DNA of 64,000 nt from Escherichia coli (GCF_030013205.1 NZ_CP122648.1); one strand, 5' to 3'; shown: positions 17,652 to 44,485, counted from the stretch's first letter. Notes: generated by a model from the sequence alone, not told the origin. Numbers and translations are program-made.

Positions 17652-27634
<9,983 letters not shown>

Positions 27635-29972: not shown

Positions 29973-31493
29973 ATGTCTTCTCATCCGTATGTCACCCAGC
30001 AAAATACCCCGCTGGCGGACGATACCACTCTGATGTCCACTACCGATCTGCAAAGCTATATCACTCATGCTAATGACACTTTTGTGCAGGTGAGCGGCTA
30101 TACCTTGCAAGAGTTACAAGGGCAGCCGCACAACATGGTGCGTCACCCGGATATGCCAAAAGCGGCATTTGCGGATATGTGGTTCACCCTGAAAAAAGGG
30201 GAGCCCTGGAGCGGTATCGTGAAAAATCGCCGCAAAAATGGCGACCATTATTGGGTGCGGGCCAATGCGGTACCGATGGTGCGCGAGGGAAAAATCAGTG
30301 GCTATATGTCGATTCGTACCCGGGCGACGGATGAAGAGATCGCGGCGGTGGAGCCGCTGTACAAAGCGTTGAACGCCGGACGTACCAGTAAGCGTATTCA
30401 TAAAGGCCTGGTGGTGCGTAAAGGCTGGCTGGGTAAACTGCCTTCATTACCGCTTCGCTGGCGGGCGCGTGGCGTGATGACCCTGATGTTTATCTTGCTG
30501 GCGGTCATGCTTTGGTTTGTTGCTGCCCCGGTGGTGACGTATATCCTCTGTGCGTTAGTGGTATTGTTGGCAAGCGCCTGTTTTGAATGGCAGATTGTCC
30601 GCCCGATAGAAAATGTCGCCCGTCAGGCACTGAAGGTGGCGACCGGAGAGCGTAATAGTGTTGAGCATCTGAATCGCAGCGATGAGCTGGGGCTGACATT
30701 ACGCGCGGTAGGGCAGCTTGGCCTGATGTGCCGTTGGCTAATTAACGATGTCTCAAGCCAGGTGTCCAGTGTCAGAAACGGCAGTGAGACGCTGGCGAAA
30801 GGCACCGATGAACTGAACGAACATACCCAGCAGACAGTTGATAACGTTCAGCAAACGGTGGCGACCATGAACCAAATGGCGGCGTCGGTGAAACAGAACT
30901 CTGCCACGGCGTCGGCTGCCGATAAACTTTCTATCACTGCCAGTAATGCGGCAGTGCAGGGCGGGGAGGCGATGACCACGGTGATCAAGACAATGGACGA
31001 TATCGCCGACAGTACCCAGCGCATTGGCACCATTACTTCGCTGATTAACGATATTGCGTTTCAGACCAATATTCTGGCCCTGAATGCGGCGGTGGAAGCG
31101 GCACGAGCCGGCGAACAAGGCAAAGGTTTTGCAGTGGTGGCAGGGGAAGTGCGTCATTTAGCCAGCCGCAGCGCCAATGCTGCCAACGATATTCGCAAGC
31201 TGATTGATGCCAGTGCTGATAAGGTGCAATCCGGTTCGCAGCAGGTACACGCAGCCGGACGGACGATGGAAGATATTGTGGCACAGGTGAAAAACGTCAC
31301 CCAGTTGATCGCCCAGATTAGCCATTCAACGCTGGAACAGGCAGATGGGCTTTCCAGCCTGACCCGTGCGGTGGATGAGCTTAACCTGATCACCCAGAAA
31401 AATGCCGAGCTGGTGGAAGAGAGTGCGCAGGTGTCGGCGATGGTGAAACACCGCGCCAGCCGACTGGAAGACGCGGTGACGGTGCTGCATTAA
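29973..31493 (+). CDS. aer: Aerotaxis receptor Aer (PAS-HAMP-MCP signalling domain)
   Basis: 506-aa [47 protein letters not shown]... with MCP signalling domain. Confidence 0.9.
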
Positions 31494-32499: not shown

Positions 32500-33264
32500 A
32501 TGAATAACTCTCCCCGCTACCCGCAGCGCGTTCGCAATGATCTGCGCTTCCGTGAACTGACTGTGCTACGCGTTGAGCGTATTAGCGCCGGTTTTCGGCG
32601 CATTGTCCTTGGCGGCGAGGCGCTGGACGGTTTTACATCGCGCGGCTTTGACGATCACAGCAAACTCTTCTTTCCTCAATCTGATGCTCACTTTGTGCCG
32701 CCAACAGTAACGGAAGAGGGCATCGTCTGGCCGGAAGGACCACGCCCACCGTCGCGTGACTATACACCGCTGTATGACGAACTACGCCATGAACTGGCGA
32801 TTGATTTCTTTATTCACGAAGGTGGCGTCGCCAGCGGCTGGGCGATGCAGGCGCAACCGGGCGATAAACTCACGGTGGCAGGTCCGCGCGGTTCGCTGGT
32901 GGTGCCAGAGGATTACGCGTATCAGCTGTATGTCTGCGATGAATCCGGAATGCCCGCACTGCGCCGCCGCCTGGAAACGTTGAGCAAACTTGCCGTTAAA
33001 CCGCAAGTTAGCGCGCTGGTTAGCGTGCGGGATAACGCCTGTCAGGATTATCTCGCGCACCTTGATGGTTTTAATATCGAATGGCTGGCACATGATGAGC
33101 AGGCAGTAGATGCGCGTCTGGCGCAGATGCAAATCCCTGCCGATGATTACTTCATCTGGATAACCGGCGAAGGCAAAGTCGTTAAGAATTTAAGCCGCCG
33201 CTTTGAAGCGGAACAGTATGATCCACAGCGGGTACGTGCAGCGGCTTACTGGCACGCAAAGTAA
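32500..33264 (+). CDS. yqjH: NADPH-dependent ferric-chelate (siderophore) reductase YqjH
   Basis: 254-aa ORF MNNSPRYPQRVRNDLRFRELTVLRVERISAGFRRIVLGGEALDGF... Confidence 0.85.
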   Translation: MNNSPRYPQRVRNDLRFRELTVLRVERISAGFRRIVLGGEALDGFTSRGFDDHSKLFFPQSDAHFVPPTVTEEGIVWPEGPRPPSRDYTPLYDELRHELAIDFFIHEGGVASGWAMQAQPGDKLTVAGPRGSLVVPEDYAYQLYVCDESGMPALRRRLETLSKLAVKPQVSALVSVRDNACQDYLAHLDGFNIEWLAHDEQAVDARLAQMQIPADDYFIWITGEGKVVKNLSRRFEAEQYDPQRVRAAAYWHAK

Positions 33265-33317
33265 CTGATATATAAAAAGAAAAAGGCTGACGATTTCTCG
33301 TCAGCCTTTGCTATGTC

Positions 33318-33362
33318 TGGTGGCCCCTGCTGGACTTGAACCAGCGACCAAGCGATTATGAG
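33318..33362 (-). repeat. 45-bp direct repeat of the tRNA ileX 3' end (island att core, yqjH-proximal side)
   Basis: TGGTGGCCCCTGCTGGACTTGAACCAGCGACCAAGCGATTATGAG is identical to 44410..44454 (3' part of ileX); diverges from the tRNA thereafter. Confidence 0.85.
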
Positions 33363-33471
33363 TTGGTTGATAACCCTTTACTTACAGATAATTAGCGATA
33401 CTTTTCAATACCTTAGTATTTTTTAAAACTACTGTATAAATACCTGTATATACCCCAAAATACTTCTTTAC

Positions 33472-33520
33472 GGTATCCTATAGGTATCCTGGAGCAGAAC
33501 AAGCGATTTTCCAGGATACC
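33472..33520. promoter_or_regulatory. Putative integrase arm-type binding sites (GGTATCC repeats)
   Basis: GGTATCCTATAGGTATCCTGG plus inverted CCAGGATACC just upstream of int; near-identical GGTATCCTATAAGTATCCTGG recurs at 44347..44367 at the other island end. Confidence 0.5.
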
Positions 33521-33543
33521 AGATCGCTTGGTGGGGTGTATGA

Positions 33544-34971
33544 GTGAAATTATTCAGATTCTCTAAAGTAAAAATTGCAGAACTGCCAACGCCGGAACAT
33601 GGACAGGTCGAATATGGTGATACGGAGGTTAACGGGCTGCGTGTCCGTGTAGGTTCGTCTGGTGTGAAAAGTTTCTGCATTTCCCGTAAGCGTAACGGAA
33701 AATTTATTCGTGCAACGCTGGGGCGTTTTCCTGATCTGAGCGTGGATAATGCCAGGGCTAAAGCTATGGAACTCCTTGGCGAAGTCGCCACAACGGGGAT
33801 AAATCCGAACATAGCAAAGCGCACTAACAACAAGGCCATGATAACGCTGAGTAAGGCGATTGACGCCTACGTAAAAAATCGTGGCCACCGCCTGAAACCC
33901 GCCACAGAAAAACAGTACCGCAGCATATTACAGAATTATTCCGGTGACTGGATGGCCCATACCCTCGCCAGTATTTCCCGCGAACGGGTGGAACAACGGC
34001 ATAAGGCCATCACTGATGGGGCTGTATGGTTCGGTGCTGATAAAACCACGTTACGGGCTGGGGTTGGTACAGGAAGCAAGGCACAGGCCGATTTATGGGC
34101 GCGTGCGCTACGTGCTGTGTGTCGGTTTGCGCATGATCATTACCGTGATGATGCGGGTAATACTCTTTTACCGGATCCGCCGACTCTGGTACTGAGCACC
34201 AAGCGCCAGTGGCACGGAACGGTAAGAAAAACGGAACGTATCCGCCTGCATGATTTTCCCCGCTGGTTTGCTGCTGTAGCTGCTGTGCGCGACCAGGGCG
34301 AACAGGAAAGGGATGATATAGCGGTGACGGTATGCGATGCCGTGGAAATGGCGCTTTTTACCGGACTGAGGAAATCAGAAATTTTTGGCCTTACGTGGGA
34401 TCGCGTGAATATGGGCGGTCGTTTTTTCTGGATAGACACCACGAAAAACGGGGATCCGCTCGAATTACCGATTACTGATACGTTGCGGGAAATGTTCCAC
34501 CGCCGACTGAAAATAAAAAACGCTGATGATGTTCTGGTGTTTCCTGGTGTGAAGGGAGTGATTCAGGAAACACGGCACATCATAGACCGGATAAGCGCGG
34601 CTACTGTTCCAGAGTCGAACGATGAAATGCTCTCCCCTGTACCATTCAAATGGCACGATGCACGCCGGACGTTCGGAACGGTTGCCGAACTGGTGGGCGT
34701 GGGCAATTACATCCTCAAGCGCCTGATGAATCACCGTACTATGCGAAGTGCTGACGTAACGCAGGGGTATTTACATTTTGGTGCTGATGAACTGCTGGAG
34801 CCAGCGTCACGGATAGAACGGGCAATTCTGGAACATGCCGGGCTGGTGGAGAGTAAAAAATCTATCGATGCGCAATTGCTTTCCGCACTGGAGAGTATGA
34901 GTGACAGTGAGAAACGCGCATTACTATTTAGTATCGTTAATTCAAATGGTGGTTTGAATGTCAGAAAATAA
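33544..34971 (+). CDS. Tyrosine recombinase / P4-type integrase
   Basis: 475-aa ORF (GTG start at 33544); N-terminal arm-binding-like segment (GLRVRVGSSGVKSFCISRKRNGKFIRATLGRFPDLSVDNARAKAMELL) and C-terminal catalytic region with H-x-x-R and Tyr (WHDARRTFGT...TQGYLHF). Confidence 0.85.
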   Translation: MKLFRFSKVKIAELPTPEHGQVEYGDTEVNGLRVRVGSSGVKSFCISRKRNGKFIRATLGRFPDLSVDNARAKAMELLGEVATTGINPNIAKRTNNKAMITLSKAIDAYVKNRGHRLKPATEKQYRSILQNYSGDWMAHTLASISRERVEQRHKAITDGAVWFGADKTTLRAGVGTGSKAQADLWARALRAVCRFAHDHYRDDAGNTLLPDPPTLVLSTKRQWHGTVRKTERIRLHDFPRWFAAVAAVRDQGEQERDDIAVTVCDAVEMALFTGLRKSEIFGLTWDRVNMGGRFFWIDTTKNGDPLELPITDTLREMFHRRLKIKNADDVLVFPGVKGVIQETRHIIDRISAATVPESNDEMLSPVPFKWHDARRTFGTVAELVGVGNYILKRLMNHRTMRSADVTQGYLHFGADELLEPASRIERAILEHAGLVESKKSIDAQLLSALESMSDSEKRALLFSIVNSNGGLNVRK

Positions 34972-35644
34972 AATCATTGCTGCAATAGAATTTGACCATA
35001 ATGATGCGAAGGATATGAATACTATTGCAGATTATATTAGAGATGAACTGGCGTCTTCTTTTGTAAAAAAAACGATATGCGATATGGCAAATATCACACC
35101 ATCTAAAATGTCTCTGGAGGAGAGATTATCATTATCGTCAGAGATAGAAAATAAGGATTTAAAGGTTAATATTTCTGTATGTGCCGGATATGGAGATGAT
35201 TTTGATAAAAAATTTAATAGTGCATATTCAGAATTCAATGATATTTTGAAAGCTGCCATTATATTTGAAGTTCTTGGTTTCAACAGACTTGCAGATCAGT
35301 TACGTGAAAGATATGCGATTTTAGTGTCGGAGAATTTATTAAAATCAGTACGTGATATAGCTAATGTAAAGAAAATTATCAGTAAAGACCGTAGTAAAGC
35401 AAAGAAAGGAAAAACAAACAGGCATAAATCAACAGCGTTATCTATAGCTTGTAACACTTGGAAAAAATACCCTAATGCCAGTTTACCCGGGCTATCCGCA
35501 GAGATATACGCGCACTTACGCAATAAATGGAATGATGTCCCTGTAGTTGGGACTATAGAGAGATGGCTTAAGGAGTCGGGGATGAATCCAAAATCCCCGC
35601 AAAAAAACAGGGATTTTAAGTTAGTTATTGGAGACAAAGAATAA
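34958..35644 (+). CDS. Hypothetical protein, AT-rich cargo gene (no family recognised)
   Basis: 228-aa ORF MSENKIIAAIEFDHNDAKDMNTIADYIRDE...; start overlaps int stop; markedly AT-rich by eye compared with the rest of the island; Lys-rich central segment. Confidence 0.55.
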   Translation: MSENKIIAAIEFDHNDAKDMNTIADYIRDELASSFVKKTICDMANITPSKMSLEERLSLSSEIENKDLKVNISVCAGYGDDFDKKFNSAYSEFNDILKAAIIFEVLGFNRLADQLRERYAILVSENLLKSVRDIANVKKIISKDRSKAKKGKTNRHKSTALSIACNTWKKYPNASLPGLSAEIYAHLRNKWNDVPVVGTIERWLKESGMNPKSPQKNRDFKLVIGDKE

Positions 35645-35776
35645 ATCCAGTTTTATCCTCTGTAATCCAGATTTCAGCCATGTAAACCAGATATGCGATT
35701 TTGTATCTGGTTTTCCTGTCTTCAAGACTTCCCCATCGCTAAATAACGTATACCTGTTCTTAATCAGAAGTATACG

Positions 35777-35974
35777 GTGATACTCATGCATTTAGAAAAG
35801 ATGACCCGCAAAGAAGCTGCCGAGCATTTGGGGGTAAGTGTCCAGACTCTTGCTAACTGGGCGTGTACTGGCAAGGTAAAAATCCCTTTTCATAAGCTGG
35901 GGCGCAAAGTGCTGTATATGCGCACTGATCTCGATGCTTATCTTGCATCCACTCGCAGAACGCAGACGGTGTAA
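35777..35974 (+). CDS. Excisionase/AlpA-type helix-turn-helix DNA-binding protein
   Basis: MTRKEAAEHLGVSVQTLANWACTGKVKIPFHKLGRKVLYMRTDLDAYLAS fits the excisionase-family HTH pattern; three candidate starts (GTG 35777, ATG 35786, ATG 35801). Confidence 0.7.
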   Translation: MILMHLEKMTRKEAAEHLGVSVQTLANWACTGKVKIPFHKLGRKVLYMRTDLDAYLASTRRTQTV

Positions 35975-36115
35975 GGGGGGAGTGATGGCACATAAAACAA
36001 AGGCGACCGCAAAAGGGTCGCCAGTGGGAACAAGGGAAAACAAAAGCATCACCAACAATGCCACATTTGCGGCTGGTGGGCAATGTGATCAGTGTGCTGG
36101 CTTGCTGGTTAGCTG

Positions 36116-36298
36116 TCAGCCTTTGGGTTCTATGCCTTCTTTGCGTAGCTTATCACGACAAGCATTTTTTACCCATGAGCTGAAATTACCAGGCCCTGCA
36201 ACTTCGTTAATTTGTTGCAACAATGTGTCTTCGAAGCGGATGTTTTTCTTTGTGCTGCCGGAGCGATCAAATTTTGGTTTCACATTTTCTTCTTGCAT
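36116..36298 (-). CDS. Putative ribbon-helix-helix (Arc/CopG-like) small regulator
   Basis: 60-aa ORF; segment KKNIRFEDTLLQQINEVAGPGNFSSWVKNACRDKLRKE fits a beta-strand/helix/Gly-turn/helix RHH pattern; start abuts palindrome TGGTACGTACCA; weak RBS. Confidence 0.4.
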   Translation of the reverse strand: MQEENVKPKFDRSGSTKKNIRFEDTLLQQINEVAGPGNFSSWVKNACRDKLRKEGIEPKG

Positions 36299-36343
36299 TG
36301 GTACGTACCATCGTTATAAACTGAAATCAAATGGTACGTACCA
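36299..36343. promoter_or_regulatory. Pair of identical 12-bp perfect palindromes TGGTACGTACCA (candidate operators)
   Basis: Copies at 36299..36310 and 36332..36343, 33 bp centre-to-centre, in the spacer between divergent small genes. Confidence 0.5.
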
Positions 36344-36443
36344 CATTAAAAATACGCAACCATTAAATACAGCGAAGCCCGGCAGTGCGGGAACACTAAC
36401 CGGGCTTCTAACCACCAACGATAGAAAGCGTATCGAGGTAGCT

Positions 36444-36647
36444 ATGAGAAATCATACCACACACCCGCAAGGGCGGGACTCGCACGACCTGAATAAATAC
36501 ATCTGGCGTTTTATCGCCCTGAGCACCGCACAACCGCGCGTGATTCACATCGTGGCCACCAGCGAACAGGAAGCACGCCAGCAATCCCCGGCTGGCTGCG
36601 TGATGGTATTCGCCGCCCGTATTCGTCAGGGGGTGTGCCATGCCTGA
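36444..36647 (+). CDS. Hypothetical small protein (68 aa)
   Basis: ATG at 36444 preceded by GAGGT RBS; MRNHTTHPQGRDSHDLNKYIWRFIALSTAQPRVIHIVATSEQEARQQSPAGCVMVFAARIRQGVCHA; stop overlaps next start. Confidence 0.5.
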   Translation: MRNHTTHPQGRDSHDLNKYIWRFIALSTAQPRVIHIVATSEQEARQQSPAGCVMVFAARIRQGVCHA

Positions 36648-36960
36648 TATGTCAAATTACCAGTACCTGATTAATCCGCATTTTAACTGTGAGCATGATA
36701 TTGCTAAAAAGGTTTATTCCGCTGCGGATGGGGCTACTGACAATATATCAATGGGTATTGCGTCAATTGGTAGCCTGATGTGGCATGCGTCAGAAAATGA
36801 GGACTATGACGAAAAGGCTATGCGCATTGATATGGGTAATATCGGTTTGTTACTGGCAATGCTTGGGCAGTTTGATATTTCGTTACGGTGCACCATTGAA
36901 AATGCCACAGATGCATTAAATGCCATAAAGAAAGCGAATACTGATTCAAATCGGGGATAA
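36640..36960 (+). CDS. Hypothetical protein (106 aa)
   Basis: ORF with start overlapping upstream stop (translational coupling), part of a same-strand chain leading to the primase gene. Confidence 0.5.
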   Translation: MPDMSNYQYLINPHFNCEHDIAKKVYSAADGATDNISMGIASIGSLMWHASENEDYDEKAMRIDMGNIGLLLAMLGQFDISLRCTIENATDALNAIKKANTDSNRG

Positions 36961-36966
36961 ATAATC

Positions 36967-37266
36967 ATGAGAACATATTTATCTGGCTTGACTGCCAGCG
37001 GTTATGCACACCCCAAAATTATCCCCGGCGCTATTTATCTGGATAAGAACGGTAACAGAGTAACGGTAAAAGAACTGATGTTTGACCGTGTGTATTTTAT
37101 TCGTGATGGCTATTCATTTCATAGTTCGCTGAACGTGGAGATCTTTATTAGCAGATTCAGGCGGGAAATCCCGCTTTCCAGAAATAACCATGTGTCATGT
37201 ATGGATGTTGATAAAAAACTACAGGAACTGAAAAACATGATTGCCGCGTGGAGAGAGCAGAAATGA
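36967..37266 (+). CDS. Hypothetical protein (99 aa)
   Basis: ORF immediately after previous gene; stop overlaps primase start. Confidence 0.5.
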   Translation: MRTYLSGLTASGYAHPKIIPGAIYLDKNGNRVTVKELMFDRVYFIRDGYSFHSSLNVEIFISRFRREIPLSRNNHVSCMDVDKKLQELKNMIAAWREQK

Positions 37267-39080
37267 AAAAAGCGCCAAATTTAAAACACCAGCCGCGTGA
37301 CAAAATGACGGAAGTCATCATTTTTGCGGGTAGTGATGCGTGGGCACATGCGAAACAGTGGCAGGAACAGGACGGGCGACTGGCTGGCGATAACGTGCCA
37401 CCTGTCTGGCTTGGAGAGCAACAACTTGCCGAACTGGACAACCTGCAAATCGTACCGGACGGACGCTATCGCGTGCGTCTCTATCAGGCGGGGTTATTGC
37501 GTCCGGGGCTTGTTAATACCATCGGGCAGAAACTGGCAGTGGCAGGTGTCAGGGATGCTGATTATTACCCTGAAGGAATGCACAGCCAGAAACGGGAGAA
37601 CTGGCGCGAATATCTGGAACGTGAACGGGCAGAGCAGGCGGAAAAGAAAAAGGTAGTTGAACTGCCTGTAAAGAAAAAAGAGCGGGTAAAAGACGATAAC
37701 GCTTCATCACTGGCGCTTAACCAGATGGGAGCAAGTCAACGCGGCGAAGTTCTCCTGGCACATTATGGCGGTGAACTGGCGATTCATGCTGACTCTGACA
37801 CTGTTCACCATTACAACGGCGTTGTATGGGAGCCAGTACAGGATAAAGAATTACAGCGAGCTATGGCACAGATTTTCATTGATGCGGAGATCAGCTATTC
37901 GCAGAACGCCATTAAATCGGCGGTCGATACCATGAAGTTAAGTTTGCCTGTAATGGGGAATACAGCCCGTAACCTGATTGGATTCAGTAACGGGGTATTT
38001 GATACCAGAACAGGTAATTTTCGGGAGCATAACAAAAACGACTGGTTGTTAATTGCCAGTGAATTACCTTTCAGCCCACCAGCAGAGGGGGAAACGCTGG
38101 CAACACATGCGCCGAATTTCTGGAAGTGGTTACGCCGTTCGGTGGCTGAGAATGACCGCAAGGCGGATCGCGTACTGGCTGCATTATTCATGGTGCTGGC
38201 GAACCGGTACGACTGGCAGTTATTCATTGAGGTAACAGGTCCAGGGGGAAGTGGTAAAAGCGTGATGGCGGAGATTTGCACCATGCTGGCGGGTAAGGCC
38301 AACACAGTATCGGCAAGCATGAAGGCGCTGGAAGATGCAAGGGAACGCGCGTTAGTGGTTGGCTTTTCGCTGATTATCATGCCGGATATGACCCGCTACG
38401 CTGGTGATGGGGCAGGAATTAAGGCCATTACAGGCGGTGACAAGGTGGCAATTGACCCGAAACACAAAGCCCCCTACTCAACGCGTATTCCGGCAGTAGT
38501 GCTGGCGGTTAACAATAACGCCATGTCATTCAGTGACCGCAGCGGGGGGATCTCACGTCGTCGGGTGATATTCAATTTTTCGGAAGTTGTACCGGAGAAC
38601 GAACGCGATCCAATGCTGGCGGAAAAAATAGAAGGTGAGCTGGCGGTAGTGATTCGCCATCTGCTTACACGGTTTGCTGACCAGGACGAAGCCAGACGCC
38701 TGTTATATGAGCAGCAGAAATCTGAAGAAGCACTGGCGATAAAGCGAGAGGGGGATTCGCTGGTGGACTTCTGCGGCTATCTCATGGCGTCGGTAATGTG
38801 TGATGGCCTGTTAGTGGGTAATGCTGAAATTGTGCCATTCAGCCCACGCAGGTATCTCTATCATGCCTATCTGGCTTATATGAGGGCACATGGGTTTGGT
38901 AAACCTGTAACACTGACGCGCTTCGGTAAAGATATGCCGGGGGCAATGGCGGAATATGGCAGGGAGTATATGAAACGGAAAACGAAGCACGGTTTGCGTT
39001 CAAACGTGACACTGACGGAGGAATCAGAAGACTGGATGCCATCATGTGTATCGGTCACTAATGACGATAGCAAAAATTAA
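37263..39080 (+). CDS. Primase/helicase-type replication protein (P4 alpha-like; D5-type NTPase)
   Basis: ORF 37248..39080; likely ATG at 37263 (MKKAPNLKHQ...); Walker A GPGGSGKS with downstream hydrophobic-D Walker B-like LIIMPD; immediately followed by TGTTCACC iteron array. Confidence 0.8.
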   Translation: MKKAPNLKHQPRDKMTEVIIFAGSDAWAHAKQWQEQDGRLAGDNVPPVWLGEQQLAELDNLQIVPDGRYRVRLYQAGLLRPGLVNTIGQKLAVAGVRDADYYPEGMHSQKRENWREYLERERAEQAEKKKVVELPVKKKERVKDDNASSLALNQMGASQRGEVLLAHYGGELAIHADSDTVHHYNGVVWEPVQDKELQRAMAQIFIDAEISYSQNAIKSAVDTMKLSLPVMGNTARNLIGFSNGVFDTRTGNFREHNKNDWLLIASELPFSPPAEGETLATHAPNFWKWLRRSVAENDRKADRVLAALFMVLANRYDWQLFIEVTGPGGSGKSVMAEICTMLAGKANTVSASMKALEDARERALVVGFSLIIMPDMTRYAGDGAGIKAITGGDKVAIDPKHKAPYSTRIPAVVLAVNNNAMSFSDRSGGISRRRVIFNFSEVVPENERDPMLAEKIEGELAVVIRHLLTRFADQDEARRLLYEQQKSEEALAIKREGDSLVDFCGYLMASVMCDGLLVGNAEIVPFSPRRYLYHAYLAYMRAHGFGKPVTLTRFGKDMPGAMAEYGREYMKRKTKHGLRSNVTLTEESEDWMPSCVSVTNDDSKN

Positions 39081-39093
39081 ACTTATGGAATAA

Positions 39094-39316
39094 CTGTTCA
39101 CCACTGTTCACCCTGTCATAAATATCTTTTGTATCAGTATGTTATAGGGTGAGCAGTTATTTATGAACTGTTCACCAAACTATTCACTGTTCACCTTTTT
39201 GATTGTTTATTGAGCTTCAAGGGTGAACAGTGGTGAACAGTTGGTGAATAGTTTTTGTGAAACTGTTCACCCCTTAACATTATGAATTAAAAGATAAAAT
39301 ATCAAAAGGTGAACAG
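39094..39316. repeat. Iteron array, 9-mer CTGTTCACC in both orientations (candidate satellite replication origin)
   Basis: Forward CTGTTCACC at 39094, 39104, 39168, 39187, 39263; reverse GGTGAACAG at 39222, 39232, 39308; one-mismatch variants at 39148 and 39243; TGTTCACC is the iteron bound by P4 alpha protein at ori/crr. Confidence 0.7.
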
Positions 39317-39367
39317 GTGAAGGGTTAAAACGCAAAAATTTTAATTTACTGCTGTGAGATAAAGCCT

Positions 39368-39613
39368 ATGACAGCGAAGCACACAAAAAAATCACAATCG
39401 CACGCCCTTGATTTGACGGAACACTGGTTAAGGGTGTCGATAAAAATCATCGACCGCAACGCCGGGGAAGGATATGCGAAAGCACATCCCGAACTGATTA
39501 GCTCATTCATGACAACGGCAGCTGCAAACTTTGCCACGCTGACAGAACGGGAGATTGCCGAAGCGGAACAGGTGACAACCATCAACGTTAAAACCGGAGA
39601 GCAGACAGCATGA
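39368..39613 (+). CDS. Hypothetical protein (81 aa)
   Basis: ORF downstream of iterons, stop overlaps next gene start. Confidence 0.45.
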   Translation: MTAKHTKKSQSHALDLTEHWLRVSIKIIDRNAGEGYAKAHPELISSFMTTAAANFATLTEREIAEAEQVTTINVKTGEQTA

Positions 39614-40032
39614 CAGCACAGATAGCGGCTTACGGGCGGCTGGTGGCTGACCCGCAGTTAAAGACCACCAGCAAGGGTACACAAATGACGATGGCGAGTA
39701 TGGCGGTCCCACTTCCGTGCAGCCAGGCAGATGACGGAACGGCGACGATGTGGTTATCCGTCCTGGCGTTTGGCAGACAGGCCGAAGCACTGGCAAAGCA
39801 CCGCAAGGGTGAACTCCTGAGCGTGGCGGGTAACATGCAGGTGAGCCAGTGGACCGGACAGAACGGGGAGACGCGGCAGGGCTGGCAGGTTATCGCAGAC
39901 AGCGTAATCAGTGCGAGAACGGCGCGACCGGGCGGCAAAAAAGGCCAACAGGGGCAGGCTACTGATGCACTGAGCAGAGCAAAACAACAGGCGGGAAATG
40001 ATGATCCGTACGGGGATAACATACCGTTTTAA
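39610..40032 (+). CDS. Single-stranded DNA-binding protein-like (OB fold) with Gly/Gln-rich tail
   Basis: 140-aa ORF; layout (N-terminal OB-fold-like segment, then GGKKGQQGQ..., acidic DDPYGDNIPF C-terminus) resembles SSB; similarity judged by eye. Confidence 0.55.
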   Translation: MTAQIAAYGRLVADPQLKTTSKGTQMTMASMAVPLPCSQADDGTATMWLSVLAFGRQAEALAKHRKGELLSVAGNMQVSQWTGQNGETRQGWQVIADSVISARTARPGGKKGQQGQATDALSRAKQQAGNDDPYGDNIPF

Positions 40033-40046
40033 GCAACGAGTAACAG

Positions 40047-40072
40047 AAGCCGGAGCAATCCGGCTTTTTTCT
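40047..40072 (+). terminator. Rho-independent terminator after SSB-like gene
   Basis: GCCGGAGCAATCCGGC hairpin followed by TTTTTT. Confidence 0.6.
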
Positions 40073-40144
40073 GGGTCCTCCCGGTGTAGTGACCTGCCAC
40101 GGGGCGGGAGCGTCGCGGAAAAAGGCTGGTTTTTGCATTTTCAT
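40073..40144. repeat. 72-bp conserved element, copy A (paired with 42607..42678)
   Basis: GGGTCCTCCCGGTGTAGTGACCTGCCACGGGGCGGGAGCGTCGCGGAAAAAGGCTGGTTTTTGCATTTTCAT; about 67/72 identical to copy B by manual alignment; contains dyad CTCCCGGTG...CCACGGGGCGGGAG. Confidence 0.7.
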
Positions 40145-40330
40145 GGCGGCGGCAGCATGTGTAGTAATTTATTGATAATTAAAAGTTATTTCTGTTTTCA
40201 CCTGTACAATATTTTTTTCTCCCTGTCATTAGACCAGTTTGCAATTAATTGAAATATATAAATAAATTTGTTTTTCACCTGCCAGATGGAGTTGCCTGTG
40301 CAAAACGTGTTCAGATGGCGGGATATTTAT

Positions 40331-40355
40331 GCCGGATTCTCTCCGGCTTTTTTGT
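40331..40355 (+). terminator. Rho-independent terminator between repeat copy A and the capsid operon
   Basis: GCCGGATTCTCTCCGGC hairpin followed by TTTTTT. Confidence 0.55.
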
Positions 40356-40455
40356 GTCTGAATCTGATTAATCTATTTTTATGATAGAAATATGTTTATC
40401 TACCACTTTTATCGATCAATAATGCGCGCAGTTTAGTCAGTAAGAGGAAGTTACT

Positions 40456-40665
40456 GTGAATTGTATTAACGACCTGAACACAGGCGAGGTAAAAGGTGGT
40501 TCCGTTCATCTGGATGCGCAGACCGTTATGCGCCTTAAGCAGTACAGGATCGACCACATAAATCATCATCCTGACCAACCATTACCAGGTGCGGCGCAGA
40601 TTGTCAGACACGCGGTTAACGCGTGGCTTGATAAGAATGGTTTTGCATCTGGGGGGGAGCAATGA
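40456..40665 (+). CDS. Hypothetical small protein (69 aa), translationally coupled to protease-capsid gene
   Basis: GTG start preceded by AAGAGGAAG RBS; stop overlaps start of the 637-aa ORF. Confidence 0.45.
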   Translation: MNCINDLNTGEVKGGSVHLDAQTVMRLKQYRIDHINHHPDQPLPGAAQIVRHAVNAWLDKNGFASGGEQ

Positions 40666-42575
40666 ATCACTGGTACACCATTAAGGCGCTGGGTGTTCGC
40701 GGAGCGGCAGAAATATCCATCTATGAAGAAATTGGCGGCTTCGGTATTACCGCGAAGCAGTTTGCGGAAGACCTGAAAGCCCTGGGCGATGTCTCACATA
40801 TCGACCTGCGGATCCATTCGCCAGGTGGTGACGTGTTTGAAGGCATCGCCATCTATAACCTGTTACGGAATCATCCGGCAGAAATTACGGTTTATATCGA
40901 TGGTGTTGCGGCTTCAATGGCTTCGGTTGTCGCAATGGCTGGCGATCGTGTTGTGATGCCGGAAAACGCCATGATGATGATACATAAGCCGTGGGGTATC
41001 TCTGGCGGAAATGCTGGTGATATGCGTGATTATGCTGATTTGCTGGATAAGGTGGAAACCGTGTTAGTCCCTGCTTATGCCAGAAAAACGGGCAAATCAG
41101 CACAGGAAATTACCGCCATGCTGGAAGATGAAACCTGGATGGACGGGAAAGAATGCCTTAAGCACGGTTTTGCTGATGAATTGTTGCCATCTGTCACAGC
41201 AATGGCGCGAATTGAATCGAAACGCACAGGAGATTTTTCACACATGCCTGAAACCATTAAAGGAATGATTACCCCGCCACAGGGAGCAGCCAATATTGCT
41301 GGTAATGAACAGAAGCGCATCAACGGAATAAGTGAAGTGTTTAGCCTGTTCGGCAGTCGTTACGACGGGATCAAAATGGCGTGCCTGGAGGATGCATCAT
41401 GTACACCGGAGATGGCCCGTGAAAAGTTGTTGAACGAGCTGGGGCGCGAGTCCACGCCATCCAATAAAAATATCCCGACTCATATTTATGCCGGTAACGG
41501 GAACATAACAGGCGATGCAATTCGTCAGGGGCTTTATTCTCGTCTTGGGTATGAACGCCCAGAGCGGGGAAATCCTTACGCGATGATGAGCCTTTTTGAA
41601 ATGGCCCAGGCATCACTAACTGATCGTGGTATCAGTGTTGGCAGTTTTTTAAATCGCTCGCAGGTCGTTAATGCAGCTTTCACACACAGCAGCAGCGATT
41701 TTTCTCATATTCTGGCTGGTGGTGCTGAAAAATCAGTGCTGAAAGGCTGGCAGGACAGCGGCGAAACGTTCCAGAAATGGACGCGTACCGGATCGCTTTC
41801 AAACTTTCATGAAGCAAAGCGCGTTGGTCTGAATGGTTTTTCAAAGCTGGATAAAGTACCGGAAGGTGCGGAATATAAATACATCACCACCAGCGATAAA
41901 GGTGTACCTATTGCGCTGGCCACATACGGTAATATTTTTTCTGTTACCCGTCAGGCCATTATCAACGATGACCTGACCCAGTTAACTACAATCCCCATGG
42001 CGATGGGGCGTGCGGCCGCCAGAACAGTAGGTAATCTGGTTTATCTTCTGTTAACCAGCAACGGCAAATTTACGGATGGTAAAGCGTTATTCCATGCCGA
42101 TCATAAAAATCTTATTGCGAAGGATATGGACATGGTGGGGCTTGATGAAGCCCGTAAGCTGATGCGCCTCCAGGAGGATGCTAACGGCGACTCACTGAAT
42201 ATTACCCCTGCTTTTGTTCTGGTCCCTGCCGCGCTGGAATCTGCCGCGCGTCGCGCCATTCTGTCATCGTCATCAGTCTTTCCGGTTGGTGATGAGAGCA
42301 CTATCAATCAGAACCCCGGCATCATTAACGTGGTGAAAGATATGGCAGAAGTAATTGTTGAGCCACGTCTTGATAAGGCCAATAGCAAGGAATGGTATGT
42401 AGCCGCAGCTAAGGGGATGGACACAATAGAAGTCGCTTATCTTGATGGTATGGATACGCCATATCTTGAGGAGCAGGTGGGCTTTACTGTTGATGGTGTC
42501 GCCTGGAAAGTGCGCATAGATGCAGGTGTCGCGGCCCTCGATTATCGCGGATTACTGAAATCGAGTGGAGCATGA
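40662..42575 (+). CDS. Prohead protease (ClpP/S49-like) fused to a capsid-like C-terminal domain
   Basis: 637-aa ORF; N-terminal IHSPGGDVFEGIAIYN and GVAASMASVVAMAGD resemble the ClpP/S49 serine-protease motifs (cf. lambda gpC DTPGG); C-terminal ~350 aa has no recognised enzyme motif and is interpreted as major capsid by context and composition. Confidence 0.7.
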   Translation: MNHWYTIKALGVRGAAEISIYEEIGGFGITAKQFAEDLKALGDVSHIDLRIHSPGGDVFEGIAIYNLLRNHPAEITVYIDGVAASMASVVAMAGDRVVMPENAMMMIHKPWGISGGNAGDMRDYADLLDKVETVLVPAYARKTGKSAQEITAMLEDETWMDGKECLKHGFADELLPSVTAMARIESKRTGDFSHMPETIKGMITPPQGAANIAGNEQKRINGISEVFSLFGSRYDGIKMACLEDASCTPEMAREKLLNELGRESTPSNKNIPTHIYAGNGNITGDAIRQGLYSRLGYERPERGNPYAMMSLFEMAQASLTDRGISVGSFLNRSQVVNAAFTHSSSDFSHILAGGAEKSVLKGWQDSGETFQKWTRTGSLSNFHEAKRVGLNGFSKLDKVPEGAEYKYITTSDKGVPIALATYGNIFSVTRQAIINDDLTQLTTIPMAMGRAAARTVGNLVYLLLTSNGKFTDGKALFHADHKNLIAKDMDMVGLDEARKLMRLQEDANGDSLNITPAFVLVPAALESAARRAILSSSSVFPVGDESTINQNPGIINVVKDMAEVIVEPRLDKANSKEWYVAAAKGMDTIEVAYLDGMDTPYLEEQVGFTVDGVAWKVRIDAGVAALDYRGLLKSSGA

Positions 42576-42581
42576 CAACAA

Positions 42582-42605
42582 GGGCGGCGACAGCCGCCTT
42601 TTTTA
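42582..42605 (+). terminator. Rho-independent terminator after protease-capsid gene
   Basis: GGCGGCGACAGCCGCC hairpin followed by TTTTTT. Confidence 0.6.
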
Positions 42606-42606
42606 C

Positions 42607-42678
42607 GGGTCCTCCCGGTGGAGTGGTCTGCCACGGGGCGGGAGCGGCGCGGAAAAAGGCTAGTTTTTGCATTTTCAT
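42607..42678. repeat. 72-bp conserved element, copy B
   Basis: GGGTCCTCCCGGTGGAGTGGTCTGCCACGGGGCGGGAGCGGCGCGGAAAAAGGCTAGTTTTTGCATTTTCAT; same terminator-then-element arrangement as copy A. Confidence 0.7.
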
Positions 42679-42831
42679 TCGTCGTCATCATCTTTATATG
42701 ATATTGAATTTTAAGTATTTTTATTTTTGGTATGTTAATTTTGCTTGTTTTATGCTCAACATATAGCGCATTTTTTGACCTCTTCTGAAAGTTGTTCGCA
42801 GGATGCATGTTTAAAACATTCTGGAGCGGGT

Positions 42832-43317
42832 ATGGATCGAGAACTGAAAAATCTGATGCTGAACATTAATCAACTGGCGGCGATAGCGGGAATATGTCGT
42901 CAGACTGCGGCGGCAAGGCTGAAAAACATCCAGCCAGCCGGAGGGCATGACAAGCTGAAACTCTATCGGGTGACTGACATTCTGACCTGTTTTCTTGATC
43001 TTCCCGTTCCGGCATCACTGGAAGAAATGGAGCCACATGACCGTAAGGCCTGGTATCAGTCCGAACGTGAACGCCTCAAGTTCGAACAGGAAACGGCGCA
43101 ACTCATACCCGCCGATGATGTGCGAAAAGAGATGGCTATATGGGGGGAAATCGTAAGCGAGGAACTGGCAAAACTCCCCAATATTCTGGCACGTGATGCC
43201 GGGCTTAAACCGATGGCAGTAAACAGAGTGCAGTCAATTATTGACGATTTGTGTAATCAGATTATCAGCCGGATGGTAAAAAATGACGTAGTGAATGAGG
43301 TCGCAAAACAGGCATGA
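42832..43317 (+). CDS. Terminase small subunit, lambda Nu1-like
   Basis: ORF 42745..43317; likely ATG at 42832 with GGAG RBS; MDRELKNLMLNINQLAAIAGICRQTAAARLKNIQPAGGHDKLKLYRVTDILTCF parallels the Nu1 N-terminal wHTH region (KKQLADIFGASIRTIQNWQEQGMPV...EVLYDSAAVIKWY); comparison from memory. Confidence 0.65.
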   Translation: MDRELKNLMLNINQLAAIAGICRQTAAARLKNIQPAGGHDKLKLYRVTDILTCFLDLPVPASLEEMEPHDRKAWYQSERERLKFEQETAQLIPADDVRKEMAIWGEIVSEELAKLPNILARDAGLKPMAVNRVQSIIDDLCNQIISRMVKNDVVNEVAKQA

Positions 43318-43601
43318 TAATGACCGAATCTGAAATACTGCGATTAATCCGCTGTGCTGGTGGAATCAGCCAGTTGGCTGACGAACAGGCCGCGCAGCCG
43401 GATACAGTCACCGCTGAAAATTACGCGCGTGTGGTGGCTGAGGTGATGCGCCGTGACGGTATTGAGCTTAACGGCGTGGATATGCGCAACATACGAACCA
43501 GAGTTCTTGAGTTGCTGGCATACCGTCGCCGTTCTCAACAACGGAGGGAGAGCGCGAAAAATACTTACCAGTGGAGGAAGCCGGAGCACTTACGGCGGTA
43601 A
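43314..43601 (+). CDS. Hypothetical protein (95 aa)
   Basis: ORF overlapping terS stop by 4 nt; basic C-terminus. Confidence 0.45.
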   Translation: MIMTESEILRLIRCAGGISQLADEQAAQPDTVTAENYARVVAEVMRRDGIELNGVDMRNIRTRVLELLAYRRRSQQRRESAKNTYQWRKPEHLRR

Positions 43602-43618
43602 CTGGTTGATATTATCGA

Positions 43619-43870
43619 AAGTGCAAAAATGCACTTAGCAACTGGTGGCGAGTTGCAGATCTGCAACTCGACTATGAAACTACGGAAACTACCCGTAGTT
43701 TGGGTAGTAAGAGTAACACCCAGATTTTGGGGCTTACTCGCGATACCCAAATAAATGGTATCGGTGGAAGAAATATCGTTTCTCATATGTGAGTACCGAG
43801 GGCGGAATTCCGCCTTCGGTTACTTATTGTGCTCATGCACAGGGAGAGGCGGGTACAAATCTCTGTACCC
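43619..43870. other. Hairpin/palindrome-dense non-coding region at the attR-proximal end of the island
   Basis: At least eight distinct dyads in ~250 bp: AAGTGCAAAAATGCACTT, GAGTTGCAGATCTGCAACTC, AAACTACGG-N7-CCGTAGTTT, TGGGTAGTAAGAGTAACACCCA, CGATACC-N9-GGTATCG, GGCGGAATTCCGCC, TGTGCTCATGCACA, GGGTACA-N6-TGTACCC; no convincing ORF. Confidence 0.6.
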
Positions 43871-44051
43871 TGACGTCTTCCGGACTGCCAGCCCCATCGT
43901 TTTTTTACGCCCGCGAAAAATAAAAATTGTTTGTATGTGAGTATTGTAGCCAGCAAAAGCTCTTTCTTTGGTGGCTTATTGTTTCTAATAGATTTTGGGA
44001 GGTAGAAATGGGAGGCCCAGCGAAAGCTGGGCCGAGCTTGTTACGCTGTCA

Positions 44052-44195
44052 TTACTTCAGCATGATAACTAAAGCTATACATACTAGCACTACGGCTATT
44101 GGGCATAGACCTAAATTGCCAAGTGCTGCGATTAAACCTGTAACGGCAATCACACGTGCAGACAGCAGGTCTGAGCCCTTTCTTAAAGTATCCAT
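44052..44195 (-). CDS. Small hydrophobic peptide (47 aa), candidate membrane peptide of type-I-toxin-like size
   Basis: ATG preceded by GGAGG RBS (ACGGAGGTATCA-ATG); translation MDTLRKGSDLLSARVIAVTGLIAALGNLGLCPIAVVLVCIALVIMLK has polar N-terminus and one predicted TM helix; below the 60-aa track cutoff. Confidence 0.3.
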   Translation of the reverse strand: MDTLRKGSDLLSARVIAVTGLIAALGNLGLCPIAVVLVCIALVIMLK

Positions 44196-44346
44196 TGATA
44201 CCTCCGTCAGGGTTTTTGCCGGTCTCTTGGAGAGTTGGGGGCAAAAGTTCAGACCCGTAGCACTTTCTTGTTCGCAGGTGAACGGCTGCTACGACCCAAC
44301 TGTTCTGTAGGCATGAGCCAATTCTTACTTGTTAATACTTCTCAGA

Positions 44347-44367
44347 GGTATCCTATAAGTATCCTGG
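44347..44367. promoter_or_regulatory. Putative integrase arm-type site, tRNA-proximal side
   Basis: GGTATCCTATAAGTATCCTGG, near-identical to 33472..33492. Confidence 0.45.
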
Positions 44368-44409
44368 TAAAGCAAGATAGTTTGGATACATCTGTAATTC
44401 ATTGAAATC

Positions 44410-44485
44410 TGGTGGCCCCTGCTGGACTTGAACCAGCGACCAAGCGATTATGAGTCGCCTGCTCTAACCACTGAGCTAAGGGGCC
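44410..44485 (-). tRNA. ileX: tRNA-Ile (anticodon CAU, lysidine-modified isoleucine tRNA)
   Basis: Reverse complement reads GGCCCCTTAGCTCAGTGGTTAGAGCAGGCGACTCATAATCGCTTGGTCGCTGGTTCAAGTCCAGCAGGGGCCACCA: 76 nt, CAT anticodon in loop, encoded CCA end; canonical position next to mug. Confidence 0.9.

What the first reader, a model, noticed from the sequence alone, without database searches (positions are those of the whole stretch)
33472..44367. Matching GGTATCCTATA(A/G)GTATCCTGG motifs at both ends of the island
Near-identical 21-bp sequences with an internal GGTATCC direct repeat occur ~110 bp inside the attL-side repeat and ~40 bp inside the attR-side tRNA end, and an inverted GGTATCCTGG copy lies at 33511. 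Their position and symmetry fit arm-type integrase or recombination-directionality-factor binding sites, which supports an intact, excision-competent element.
Basis: seen in the sequence. Interest (0 to 1): 0.35.

Follow-up and report, generated by a model that had tools for sequence, protein, structure and literature searches.

The report
Integrase arm sites of ileX satellite
The matching motifs at both ends of this 11-kb E. coli phage-satellite-like island are real, conserved across many genera, and are most likely the docking ("arm-type") sites for the N-terminal domain of the island's own integrase, which is an ordinary feature of such elements.

Summary
GGTATCCTATAGGTATCCTGG (33472-33492), GGTATCCTATAAGTATCCTGG (44347-44367) and an inverted copy (33511-33520) exist, with none expected by chance.

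They lie in the two arms of an 11-kb PICI-like satellite inserted in tRNA-Ile2 (ileX). The island is bounded by a perfect 48-bp repeat, and an empty site in other E. coli matches the junctions exactly.

In 48 distinct integrase-side arms and 33 far-side arms, from E. coli, Citrobacter, Kluyvera, Buttiauxella, Erwinia, Xenorhabdus, Yersinia, Serratia and viral contigs, the tandem RGTATCCY-N3-RGTATCCY is the best conserved block. It sits at a fixed distance from the core while the flanks diverge. E. coli strains with an unrelated far-side arm keep it.

Decisive result: base 8 (T or C) changes together in all five sites. It tracks integrase residue 21 perfectly (Q in 39 of 39 T-type loci, R in 9 of 9 C-type loci), with at least three independent switches. 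Only 4 of 475 integrase columns discriminate the two types, all within residues 3-22. AlpA has no discriminating column, and one identical AlpA serves both site types.

So these are integrase arm-type sites, not RDF sites. On the integrase side they probably also act as an autoregulatory operator. Excision competence is supported only indirectly. This is a new member of a known kind, of low to moderate interest.

The parts
33316..33363 (.). attL copy of the core: the displaced 3' part of tRNA-Ile2 (the host copy). It ends in the anticodon stem-loop, where crossover is inferred.
   Evidence: Perfect 48-bp direct repeat with 44408-44455. The empty-site alignment confirms the junction. T-arm variants in L002 place the crossover to the right of the T-arm.
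33403..33415 (+). TTTCAATACCTTA, an IHF-like block (WATCAANNNNTTR with 1-2 mismatches) in the integrase-side arm.
   Evidence: TTTTCA..TTA is conserved in the alignment of 17 and of 48 arms. The assignment to IHF is inference only.
33431..33442 (+). ACTGTATAAATA block, found only in the integrase-side arm. It is a candidate -10 or operator of the int promoter.
   Evidence: Present in 46 of 48 distinct proximal arms and absent from distal arms. The promoter scan found no canonical sigma-70 site, so its function is inferred.
33440..33463 (+). Three ATAC(C/T) repeats at exact 10-bp phasing (33440, 33450, 33460), immediately upstream of the tandem sites.
   Evidence: Conserved blocks. They do not follow the T/C switch at base 8 (sequences). 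Their role (bending, RDF sites or weak sites) is unknown.
33472..33479 (+). Arm-type site 1 of the integrase-side arm, GGTATCCT.
33483..33490 (+). Arm-type site 2 of the integrase-side arm, GGTATCCT, 11 bp after site 1.
33500..33507 (+). CAAGCGAT, a copy of the core half-site (left arm of an inverted pair).
   Evidence: Four of the five copies in the window lie in the two cores and this arm. Conserved in most loci.
33513..33520 (-). Arm-type site 3, an inverted GGTATCCT, 24 nt upstream of the int start codon.
   Evidence: Conserved in most loci, and it switches T to C together with the other sites.
33523..33530 (-). ATCGCTTG, the inverted partner of the core half-site copy.
33544..34971 (+). 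Tyrosine integrase of 475 aa, with an N-terminal arm-DNA-binding domain. Residue Q21 tracks base 8 of the sites.
   Evidence: PF13356 and PF00589. RefSeq annotates the same ORF. Model of residues 1-110 has pLDDT 77.8. Fold matches 3JTZ, 3RMP and 3JU0. Co-variation.
35777..35974 (+). AlpA-like HTH_17 protein, the probable RDF or activator. It is not the reader of this motif.
   Evidence: PF12728. phrog_66, excisionase and regulator. No co-variation with the sites.
44325..44338 (+). TTAC and ATAC blocks 10 bp apart, upstream of the far-side tandem sites.
44347..44354 (+). Arm-type site 1 of the far-side arm, GGTATCCT.
44358..44365 (+). Arm-type site 2 of the far-side arm, AGTATCCT.
44408..44455 (.). 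attR copy of the core, inside the functional tRNA gene.
44410..44485 (-). tRNA-Ile2 (anticodon CAU, ileX), the integration target.
   Evidence: ARAGORN. Rfam tRNA, 73 bits. RefSeq annotates tRNA-Ile.

Best explanation
The motifs are arm-type binding sites (consensus RGTATCCY) for the N-terminal arm-DNA-binding domain of the island's own P4-like tyrosine integrase.

**Layout.** In the excised circular form the two ends join into one attP of about 300 bp. Reading along the + strand it contains:
- [ATAC x2][RGTATCCY x2];
- about 44 bp;
- the 46-48 bp core, which is the tRNA-Ile2 3' half, with crossover in the anticodon stem-loop;
- about 108 bp holding an IHF-like site and phased ATAC repeats;
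- [RGTATCCY x2];
- an inverted third site flanked by copies of the core half-site;
- the int gene.

**Mechanism.** The integrase is heterobivalent. Its N-terminal domain holds the tandem sites, which are spaced 11 bp apart and so lie on one face of the helix. Its core-binding and catalytic domains hold the core. Together they bridge and bend the arms into the intasome needed for integration (attP x attB) and, with an AlpA-like RDF, for excision (attL x attR).

**Second role.** The three integrase-side sites lie between a conserved promoter-like block and the int start codon. Integrase occupancy there probably also represses int, as in the KplE1 intS paradigm.

**Shown here:** existence, enrichment, conservation, fixed position, co-variation with integrase residues 3-22, and natural attP junctions. 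**Inferred:** physical binding, the requirement for recombination, and autoregulation.
For: 1. The integrase carries Arm-DNA-bind_3 (PF13356, E = 2.8e-13) plus Phage_integrase. [quoted passage not shown]

2. The motif occurs in both arms and nowhere else in the island. There is no RGTATCCT in the interior and none in the alpA or icd promoter regions.

3. Integrase homologues of 68-80% identity were found in 16 genome loci from at least 10 genera and in about 45 viral-contig loci. These gave 48 distinct proximal and 33 distinct distal arms. The tandem site is at least 95% conserved while the flanks diverge. It starts 108-109 nt after the anticodon-loop ATGAG in 54 of 55 proximal arms, and ends 42-47 nt before the tRNA 3' end in 46 of 46 distal arms.

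4. In E. coli, 86 genomes share the integrase-side arm but only 28 share the window's far-side arm. Genomes with an unrelated far-side arm still carry GGTATCCTATAGGTATCCT at the same place.

5. Co-variation. Base 8 is T in 39 loci and C in 9, and it changes in all five sites together. The integrase residue two positions before the conserved EY (Q21 in the window) is Q in 39 of 39 T-type loci and R in 9 of 9 C-type loci.
   - A tree built on integrase residues 101-465 shows at least three independent switches. L007 (R) is nested among Q-type loci, and L019 (Q) is nested among R-type loci.
   - Only 4 of 475 integrase columns discriminate the two types, all within residues 3-22.
   - Gln pairing with an A:T base pair and Arg with a G:C base pair fits established amino-acid/base preferences (my knowledge, not tested here).

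6. AlpA has no discriminating column. An identical AlpA sequence occurs with T-type (L019) and C-type (L071) sites.

7. Exact attP junctions (far-side arm, core, integrase-side arm) occur between tandem copies of a sister island in E. coli A33.

8. Precedent. When an integrase promoter overlaps attL arm sites, int is negatively autoregulated (PMC2951348). In the PICI EcCICFT073, AlpA does not control Pint (PMC6092414).
Against: - There is no direct binding or recombination data.
- Int and AlpA always co-occur in the loci found, so presence or absence cannot separate them. AlpA could still contact the invariant part of the site.
- The association of Q/R with T/C could partly reflect block exchange of a contiguous module (attP plus the integrase N-terminus) rather than direct readout by residue 21. 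L019's whole N-terminal 40 residues look swapped.
- In L007 a one-residue insertion makes the alignment of residue 21 ambiguous, K or R.
- The N-domain model has only moderate confidence (pLDDT 77.8), and Q21 sits at the edge of strand 1 rather than clearly within it.
- No canonical sigma-70 promoter was found upstream of int, so the autoregulation part is inference.
Confidence: 0.8

Rival explanations
1. The repeats are binding sites for the recombination directionality factor or activator (the AlpA-like HTH_17 protein, 35777-35974). It would bend the arms to favour excision.
For: An AlpA-like gene is present in every related locus with enough sequence. It matches excisionase families (phrog_66, phrog_4691). 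alpA is required for excision in other E. coli PICIs (PMC11773190; PMC6092414). RDFs commonly bind tandem direct repeats (my knowledge).
Against: No AlpA column tracks the T/C switch at base 8. Identical AlpA proteins serve both site variants, whereas integrase residues 3-22 track the switch perfectly. The motif is absent from the alpA and downstream promoter regions, where an activator should also bind. The module is present in both arms, whereas RDF sites are usually confined to one arm (my knowledge). In EcCICFT073, AlpA did not affect Pint.
Confidence: 0.1
2. The integrase-side copies form an RNA or DNA hairpin (GGTATCCTGG pairing with CCAGGATACC) in the int leader. This would act as an attenuator or translational control element. 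The far-side copy would be incidental.
For: A perfect 10-bp stem is predicted in the window leader (MFE -35.2 kcal/mol, z = -3.3). The T-to-C change in site 2 and in the inverted site keeps them complementary.
Against: The same T-to-C change occurs in site 1 and in both far-side sites, which have no partner. Far-side arms lack the inverted copy. L007 lacks the inverted copy altogether. The predicted folds differ between loci. The flanking AAGCGATT and AATCGCTT repeats change without compensation.
Confidence: 0.03
3. The sites are bound by another factor. This could be a host nucleoid protein or the variable 228-aa protein encoded just after int.
For: The 228-aa ORF overlaps the end of int and has no known family. 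Conserved IHF-like and phased AT-rich blocks show that other factors probably act in the arms.
Against: The motif matches no IHF or Fis consensus (my knowledge). The 228-aa protein is only 25-55% identical between loci, or not detectable, while the motif is invariant. The site variant tracks the integrase N-terminus.
Confidence: 0.05
4. The match is chance similarity, or a neutral leftover of a recent duplication between the two island ends.
For: Only two long copies exist in the window. Short two-copy repeats are often chance.
Against: None of 100 shuffles gave a match. The block is conserved at a fixed position in 48 and 33 distinct arms across genera, and in unrelated far-side arms. The variation is concerted.
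Confidence: 0.01

Closest known systems
Arm-type sites of heterobivalent tyrosine integrases (lambda Int P1/P2 and P'1-P'3; P2 and L5 paired arm sites)
   Same: The integrase has a separate N-terminal arm-binding domain. Short repeats distinct from the core lie on both sides of the core, as adjacent tandem copies about one helical turn apart, roughly 45-135 bp from the crossover. An accessory bending-site candidate lies between the core and the arm sites.
   Different: The recognition sequence differs (RGTATCCY). The same module sits in direct orientation in both arms. The N-domain belongs to the DUF4102/Arm-DNA-bind_3 type. Binding was not tested here.
P4-like / HPI / HAI7 integrase arm-binding domains (PDB 3JTZ, 3RMP, 3JU0; IntSXT subgroup in PMC8138268)
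   Same: The fold and Pfam family of the N-terminal domain are the same. Integration is into the 3' part of a tRNA gene, with core identity reaching the anticodon loop.
   Different: Sequence identity to the solved domains is only 20-24%. The integrase is long (475 aa). The target is ileX. The arm-site sequence of this clade was not found in the literature searched.
KplE1 (CPS-53) IntS/TorI module, in which the integrase promoter overlaps attL and int is negatively autoregulated (Panis et al. 2010, PMC2951348)
   Same: int lies next to attL and is transcribed away from the core. Arm-type sites, and here also core-like sites, lie between the core and the int start, so the promoter and leader must overlap the arm.
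   Different: The promoter is not mapped, and no consensus sigma-70 site was found. int here is next to the displaced tRNA fragment, not the intact tRNA. The RDF is of the AlpA type and is 2.2 kb away.
Gram-negative phage-inducible chromosomal islands (EcCICFT073, EcCIMP1; PMC6092414, PMC11773190)
   Same: The element is about 11 kb, with rightward int, alpA, primase-replicase, an iteron-like cluster and packaging genes (TerS-like DUF1441). It has a dedicated att site.
   Different: It carries a ClpP-protease/major-capsid fusion gene but no portal or large terminase. The helper phage is unknown. The att arms of PICIs were not described in the papers read.

Membership tests
attP/attL/attR arm-type sites of a heterobivalent tyrosine integrase | The cognate integrase has an N-terminal arm-DNA-binding domain in addition to the core-binding and catalytic domains. 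| tested here: met
   PF13356, 50.2 bits, residues 9-94. PF00589, residues 266-403. Fold match to 3JTZ, 3RMP and 3JU0.
attP/attL/attR arm-type sites of a heterobivalent tyrosine integrase | A repeated sequence, different from the core, lies in the arms flanking the core. | tested here: met
   Two direct copies plus one inverted copy on the integrase side and two direct copies on the far side. None in the island interior.
attP/attL/attR arm-type sites of a heterobivalent tyrosine integrase | The sites are conserved with the integrase lineage, and their specificity co-evolves with the arm-binding domain. | tested here: met
   48 and 33 distinct arms, at least 95% conserved, at a fixed position. 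Base 8 T/C tracks Q/R at integrase residue 21 in 48 of 48 loci. The 4 discriminating columns of 475 all lie in residues 3-22.
attP/attL/attR arm-type sites of a heterobivalent tyrosine integrase | The integrase N-domain physically binds the sites (EMSA or footprint). | not testable with these tools
   No binding assay or protein-DNA modelling tool was available.
attP/attL/attR arm-type sites of a heterobivalent tyrosine integrase | The sites are required for integrative or excisive recombination. | not testable with these tools
   Only indirect evidence: exact attP junctions in a tandem array of a sister island and an empty site in most genomes.
RDF (excisionase) binding sites | An RDF gene is present in the element. 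| tested here: met
   HTH_17 AlpA-like ORF at 35777-35974. Matches phrog excisionase families.
RDF (excisionase) binding sites | Site sequence co-varies with the RDF protein. | tested here: not met
   No discriminating AlpA column. An identical AlpA occurs with both site variants.
Negatively autoregulated integrase promoter overlapping attL (KplE1 type) | int is adjacent to attL and transcribed away from the core, with integrase sites between the core and the start codon. | tested here: met
   Core ends at 33363, sites lie at 33472-33520 and int starts at 33544.
Negatively autoregulated integrase promoter overlapping attL (KplE1 type) | A mapped promoter overlaps the sites, and integrase represses it. 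| tested here: inconclusive
   The consensus scan found no sigma-70 site in 33250-33700. A conserved ACTGTATAAATA block is a candidate. Repression cannot be tested here.
Gram-negative PICI / phage satellite | The element has int, alpA, primase-replicase and packaging-interference or packaging genes, is about 10-15 kb, is transcribed rightward and has its own att site. | tested here: met
   ORFs and Pfam or PHROG matches. RefSeq annotation. Size of 11.1 kb between the repeats.
Gram-negative PICI / phage satellite | The element is induced and mobilised by a helper phage. | not testable with these tools
   No experiment was possible. Prophages with a similar TerS, TerL, portal and ClpP-capsid module exist in E. 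coli (H10-H17) and are candidate helpers only.

The most novel reading that the evidence does not exclude
Two linked readings are not excluded.

(a) A single residue of the DUF4102-type arm-binding domain (Q21 versus R21) sets the base read at position 8 of the arm site (T:A versus C:G). This would be a simple, portable specificity determinant for P4-like integrases, and it would be exchanged between satellites as one block together with attP.

(b) The integrase-side arm holds a 'decoy core'. Two inverted copies of the core half-site CAAGCGAT are spaced 17 bp apart instead of 7 bp, with an inverted arm site between them. Integrase could use both of its DNA-binding surfaces on this element to shut off its own gene without cutting the DNA.
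Probability: 0.3. Interest if true: 0.45.

Novelty: new member of a known kind. Interest (0 to 1): 0.3.

Why it matters
Arm-type sites are textbook for lambda-like integrases but are rarely mapped for the many P4-like (DUF4102) integrases that move satellites and genomic islands into tRNA genes. This analysis gives three things:
- a complete, comparative attP map for a widespread ileX-targeting satellite family;
- a clean assignment of the repeats to the integrase rather than to AlpA;
- a concrete amino-acid/base pair (Q21 or R21 with base 8 T or C) that can be tested in one EMSA experiment.

The map could help in predicting or re-engineering integrase specificity, in delimiting islands automatically, and in understanding how int expression is held down in the integrated state. 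It does not reveal a new kind of system.

Tried and rejected
- **Int versus AlpA by presence or absence.** This was not possible, because both genes are present in every related locus.
- **Literature search for the motif string.** It found only unrelated primer sequences.
- **The 2009 JBC paper on the HPI and HAI7 arm-binding domains.** It is not held in the library, so residue-level DNA contacts could not be compared.
- **Promoter scan upstream of int.** No consensus sigma-70 site was found.
- **RNA hairpin or leader reading.** Folds are predicted but differ between loci. They cannot explain the far-side copies or the concerted change of unpaired sites. A possible pairing between the leader and the ribosome-binding site (ACCCC with GGGGT in the window, ACTCC with GGAGT in L006) does not co-vary consistently over 39 leaders, so it was dropped.
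- **LexA-box reading of ACTGTATAAATA(A/C)CCAG.** CTG-N10-CAG holds in 24 of 48 distinct arms but not in the window. This is left as a note only.
- **The inverted GGATAC at 44384 as a third far-side site.** It is not conserved. In most relatives that stretch is a terminator hairpin for the tRNA.
- **Rfam scan of the island.** Only the tRNA passed threshold.
- **Motif matches without an integrase.** About 60 of the 114 viral-contig motif matches have no integrase homologue. That is roughly the number I estimated by hand to arise by chance for this degenerate pattern, so they were ignored.

Full report
**1. What is in the sequence**

- 33472-33492, GGTATCCTATAGGTATCCTGG;
- 44347-44367, GGTATCCTATAAGTATCCTGG.

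None of 100 dinucleotide-preserving shuffles of the window gave a match, even with three mismatches allowed. The inverted CCAGGATACC is at 33511-33520. The similarity between the two ends extends to 34 nt. GTATCC occurs six times in the roughly 340 nt of the two arms, against 29 times in the whole 64-kb window on both strands.

**2. Context**

The window is E. coli, 100% identical to strain ETEC4079. Between nfeF (yqjH) and mug/rpoD lies an 11.1-kb insertion bounded by a perfect 48-bp direct repeat (33316-33363 and 44408-44455). The repeat is the 3' part of tRNA-Ile2(CAU), ileX (44410-44485, minus strand). An empty ileX site in strain NEBExpress equals the left flank of attL, plus the core, plus the right flank of attR.

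The island encodes:
- a 475-aa tyrosine integrase with an N-terminal Arm-DNA-bind_3 domain (33544-34971);
- a 228-aa protein of unknown family;
- an AlpA-like HTH_17 protein;
- YlcI-like, Icd-like and DUF4222 proteins;
- a D5-type primase, followed by an iteron-like cluster;
- SSB;
- a ClpP-protease/major-capsid fusion protein;
- a DUF1441 small terminase.

This is the gene set of a Gram-negative PICI-like phage satellite (compare PMC6092414). Thirty-four of 5,426 complete E. coli genomes hold at least 80% of the island, and nearly all the others match only at the tRNA.

**3. Conservation within E. coli**

The integrase-side arm (33364-33560) is present in 86 genomes. The window's far-side arm (44250-44409) is present in only 28. 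In strains E2855, WCHEC035125 and APEC E16002 the far-side arm is unrelated in sequence, and even the T-arm of the tRNA copy supplied by the island differs. Yet GGTATCCTATAGGTATCCT(A/G)G sits about 44 nt from the tRNA end in all three.

In these strains the attL fragment keeps the host T-arm while the functional tRNA carries the island's version. This places the crossover to the right of the T-arm, in the anticodon stem-loop at the edge of the repeat.

**4. Conservation across genera**

The integrase has many homologues of 73-98% identity.
- A scan of one genome per species returned 16 loci (68-80% identity) from Citrobacter, Buttiauxella, Superficieibacter, Trabulsiella, Kosakonia, Erwinia, Kluyvera, Xenorhabdus, Yersinia and Serratia.
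- A motif scan of viral contigs added about 45 loci with the same integrase. About 60 further matches had no integrase, roughly the number I estimated by hand to arise by chance for this degenerate pattern.

From all loci I extracted 55 integrase-side arms (48 distinct) and 46 far-side arms (33 distinct). The tandem site starts 108-109 nt after the anticodon-loop ATGAG in 54 of 55 integrase-side arms. It ends 42-47 nt before the tRNA 3' end in all 46 far-side arms. In alignments, the two RGTATCC units are at least 95% conserved, while most of the surrounding arm has diverged and the region further out is unalignable.

**5. Who reads the motif**

Int and AlpA are both present in every locus, so presence or absence is uninformative. 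The variation in the site is informative.

Base 8 of the unit (RGTATCC**Y**) is T in most loci and C in nine. Where it is C, it is C in both integrase-side direct copies, in the inverted copy and in both far-side copies.

The integrase residue two positions before the conserved Glu-Tyr (Q21 in G-Q-V-E-Y of the window protein) is:
- Gln in 39 of 39 T-type loci;
- Arg in 9 of 9 C-type loci.

A neighbour-joining tree built only on residues 101-465 places Buttiauxella L007 (Arg) inside the Gln clade. It places Yersinia L019 (Gln) inside the Arg clade, with L047 (Gln) basal to it. That gives at least three independent switches or module exchanges.

Over the whole 475-column alignment only four columns separate the two groups, and all four lie in residues 3-22. 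AlpA has no discriminating column, and one and the same AlpA sequence occurs with T-type (L019) and C-type (L071) sites.

The model of integrase residues 1-110 (pLDDT 77.8) has strand 1 at residues 22-26. [quoted passage not shown] Gln with an A:T pair and Arg with a G:C pair are the commonest specific contacts (my knowledge). Direct readout by residue 21 remains an inference, for three reasons:
- attP and the integrase N-terminus are contiguous in the circular form and may be exchanged as one block;
- in L007 a one-residue insertion makes the alignment ambiguous, K or R;
- Q21 sits at the edge of strand 1 in a model of only moderate confidence.

**6. Other features of the arms**

Both arms carry, upstream of the tandem sites and in the same orientation, ATAC(C/T) blocks at 10-bp phasing. 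There are three on the integrase side (33440, 33450, 33460) and two on the far side. These do not follow the T/C switch. They may be RDF sites, weak sites or intrinsic bends.

The integrase-side arm alone also has:
- an IHF-like TTTCAATACCTTA (33403-33415);
- an almost invariant ACTGTATAAATA block (33431-33442);
- an inverted pair of the core half-site, CAAGCGAT (33500-33507) and ATCGCTTG (33523-33530), around the inverted arm site. The spacing between GCGA and TCGC is 17 bp, against 7 bp in the true core.

All of this lies within 115 bp upstream of the int start. int is transcribed away from the core, so its promoter and leader must overlap the arm. This is the arrangement shown for KplE1 intS to give negative autoregulation by the integrase (PMC2951348). 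No consensus promoter was detected here, so this part is inferred.

**7. Excision competence**

Several observations are consistent with a functional recombination module:
- int and alpA are full length relative to their homologues;
- the cores are perfect;
- all arm elements are present;
- the island is present in some E. coli genomes and absent from most;
- the same integrase module carries different cargo in different strains;
- E. coli A33 has tandem copies of a sister island joined by exact attP junctions, in the order far-side arm, core, integrase-side arm.

None of this proves excision of the copy in the window.

**8. Rivals**

RDF sites, a leader hairpin, other proteins and chance were considered. 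They are weighed in the rival-explanations section of this report, with the relevant calls (3, 22, 29, 31, 49, 50, 68).

**9. Verdict**

The interpretation as arm-type integrase sites is well supported by comparative and co-variation evidence, and the RDF alternative is disfavoured. This is an ordinary attP architecture for a P4-like integrase, described here for a widespread ileX-targeting satellite family. It is a new member of a known kind, of low to moderate interest, with one neatly testable specificity prediction (Q21 or R21 with base 8).

Noticed in passing
L023 (E. coli A33, NZ_CP028742) 1-40197; junctions at 9340-9600, 19890-20160 and about 30410-30670: Four to five tandem copies of a related ileX island (different capsid module) are joined by exact attP junctions. 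The assembly has many annotated frameshifts. This is either a true tandem integration or replicating concatemers captured by long reads.
   Followed up: partly
L002 30297-30372, also L004 and L005; compare window 44410-44485: In strains with the alternative far-side arm, the functional tRNA-Ile2 has an island-supplied T-arm with compensatory changes (TTGGGTTTGAACCAA instead of CTGGACTTGAACCAG). The host version survives in the attL fragment.
   Followed up: partly
L002 30245-30296 and L015 20330-20384; window 44368-44409: Most far-side arms carry a strong hairpin plus U-run that would terminate tRNA transcription, replacing the native terminator left behind at 33282-33309. The window-type arm has lost this hairpin.
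   Followed up: partly
window 33429-33448 and the equivalent position in related loci: The block TACTGTATAAATA(A/C)CCAGAA resembles a LexA box (CTG-N10-CAG) in 24 of 48 distinct integrase-side arms. In the window the CAG half is replaced (..CCTGTAT). It may instead be the int -10 region.
   Followed up: partly
window 33500-33530: Inverted copies of the core half-site (CAAGCGAT and ATCGCTTG) flank the inverted arm site just upstream of int. They are spaced one helical turn wider than in the real core. Four of the five CAAGCGAT copies in the window are in the two cores and here.
   Followed up: partly
window 39079-39316: A cluster of direct and inverted CTGTTCACC repeats lies just after the primase gene, probably the replication-origin iterons of the satellite.
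   Followed up: no
window 40051-40144 and 42585-42678: A 94-nt direct repeat (87% identity) lies downstream of ssb and downstream of the capsid gene. It has no Rfam match and its function is unknown.
   Followed up: no
window 36300-36343 and 35676-35721: Two copies of the palindrome GGTACGTACC lie between ylcI and the icd-like gene. An 18-nt inverted repeat (AGCCATGTAAACCAGATA / TATCTGGTTTTCCTGTCT, arms 35676-35693 and 35704-35721) lies upstream of alpA. Both are likely operators, and neither is related to the arm-site motif.
   Followed up: no
window 34958-35644: A 228-aa ORF with low GC (0.33 for 35000-35499) overlaps the end of int. It has no Pfam or PHROG family and is only 25-55% identical between related islands. 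It may be a variable accessory slot.
   Followed up: no
L003 (E. coli 90-9280) 26756-40013: A second satellite with a different integrase is inserted inside the ClpP-capsid gene of the ileX island, splitting that gene into two pseudogene fragments.
   Followed up: no
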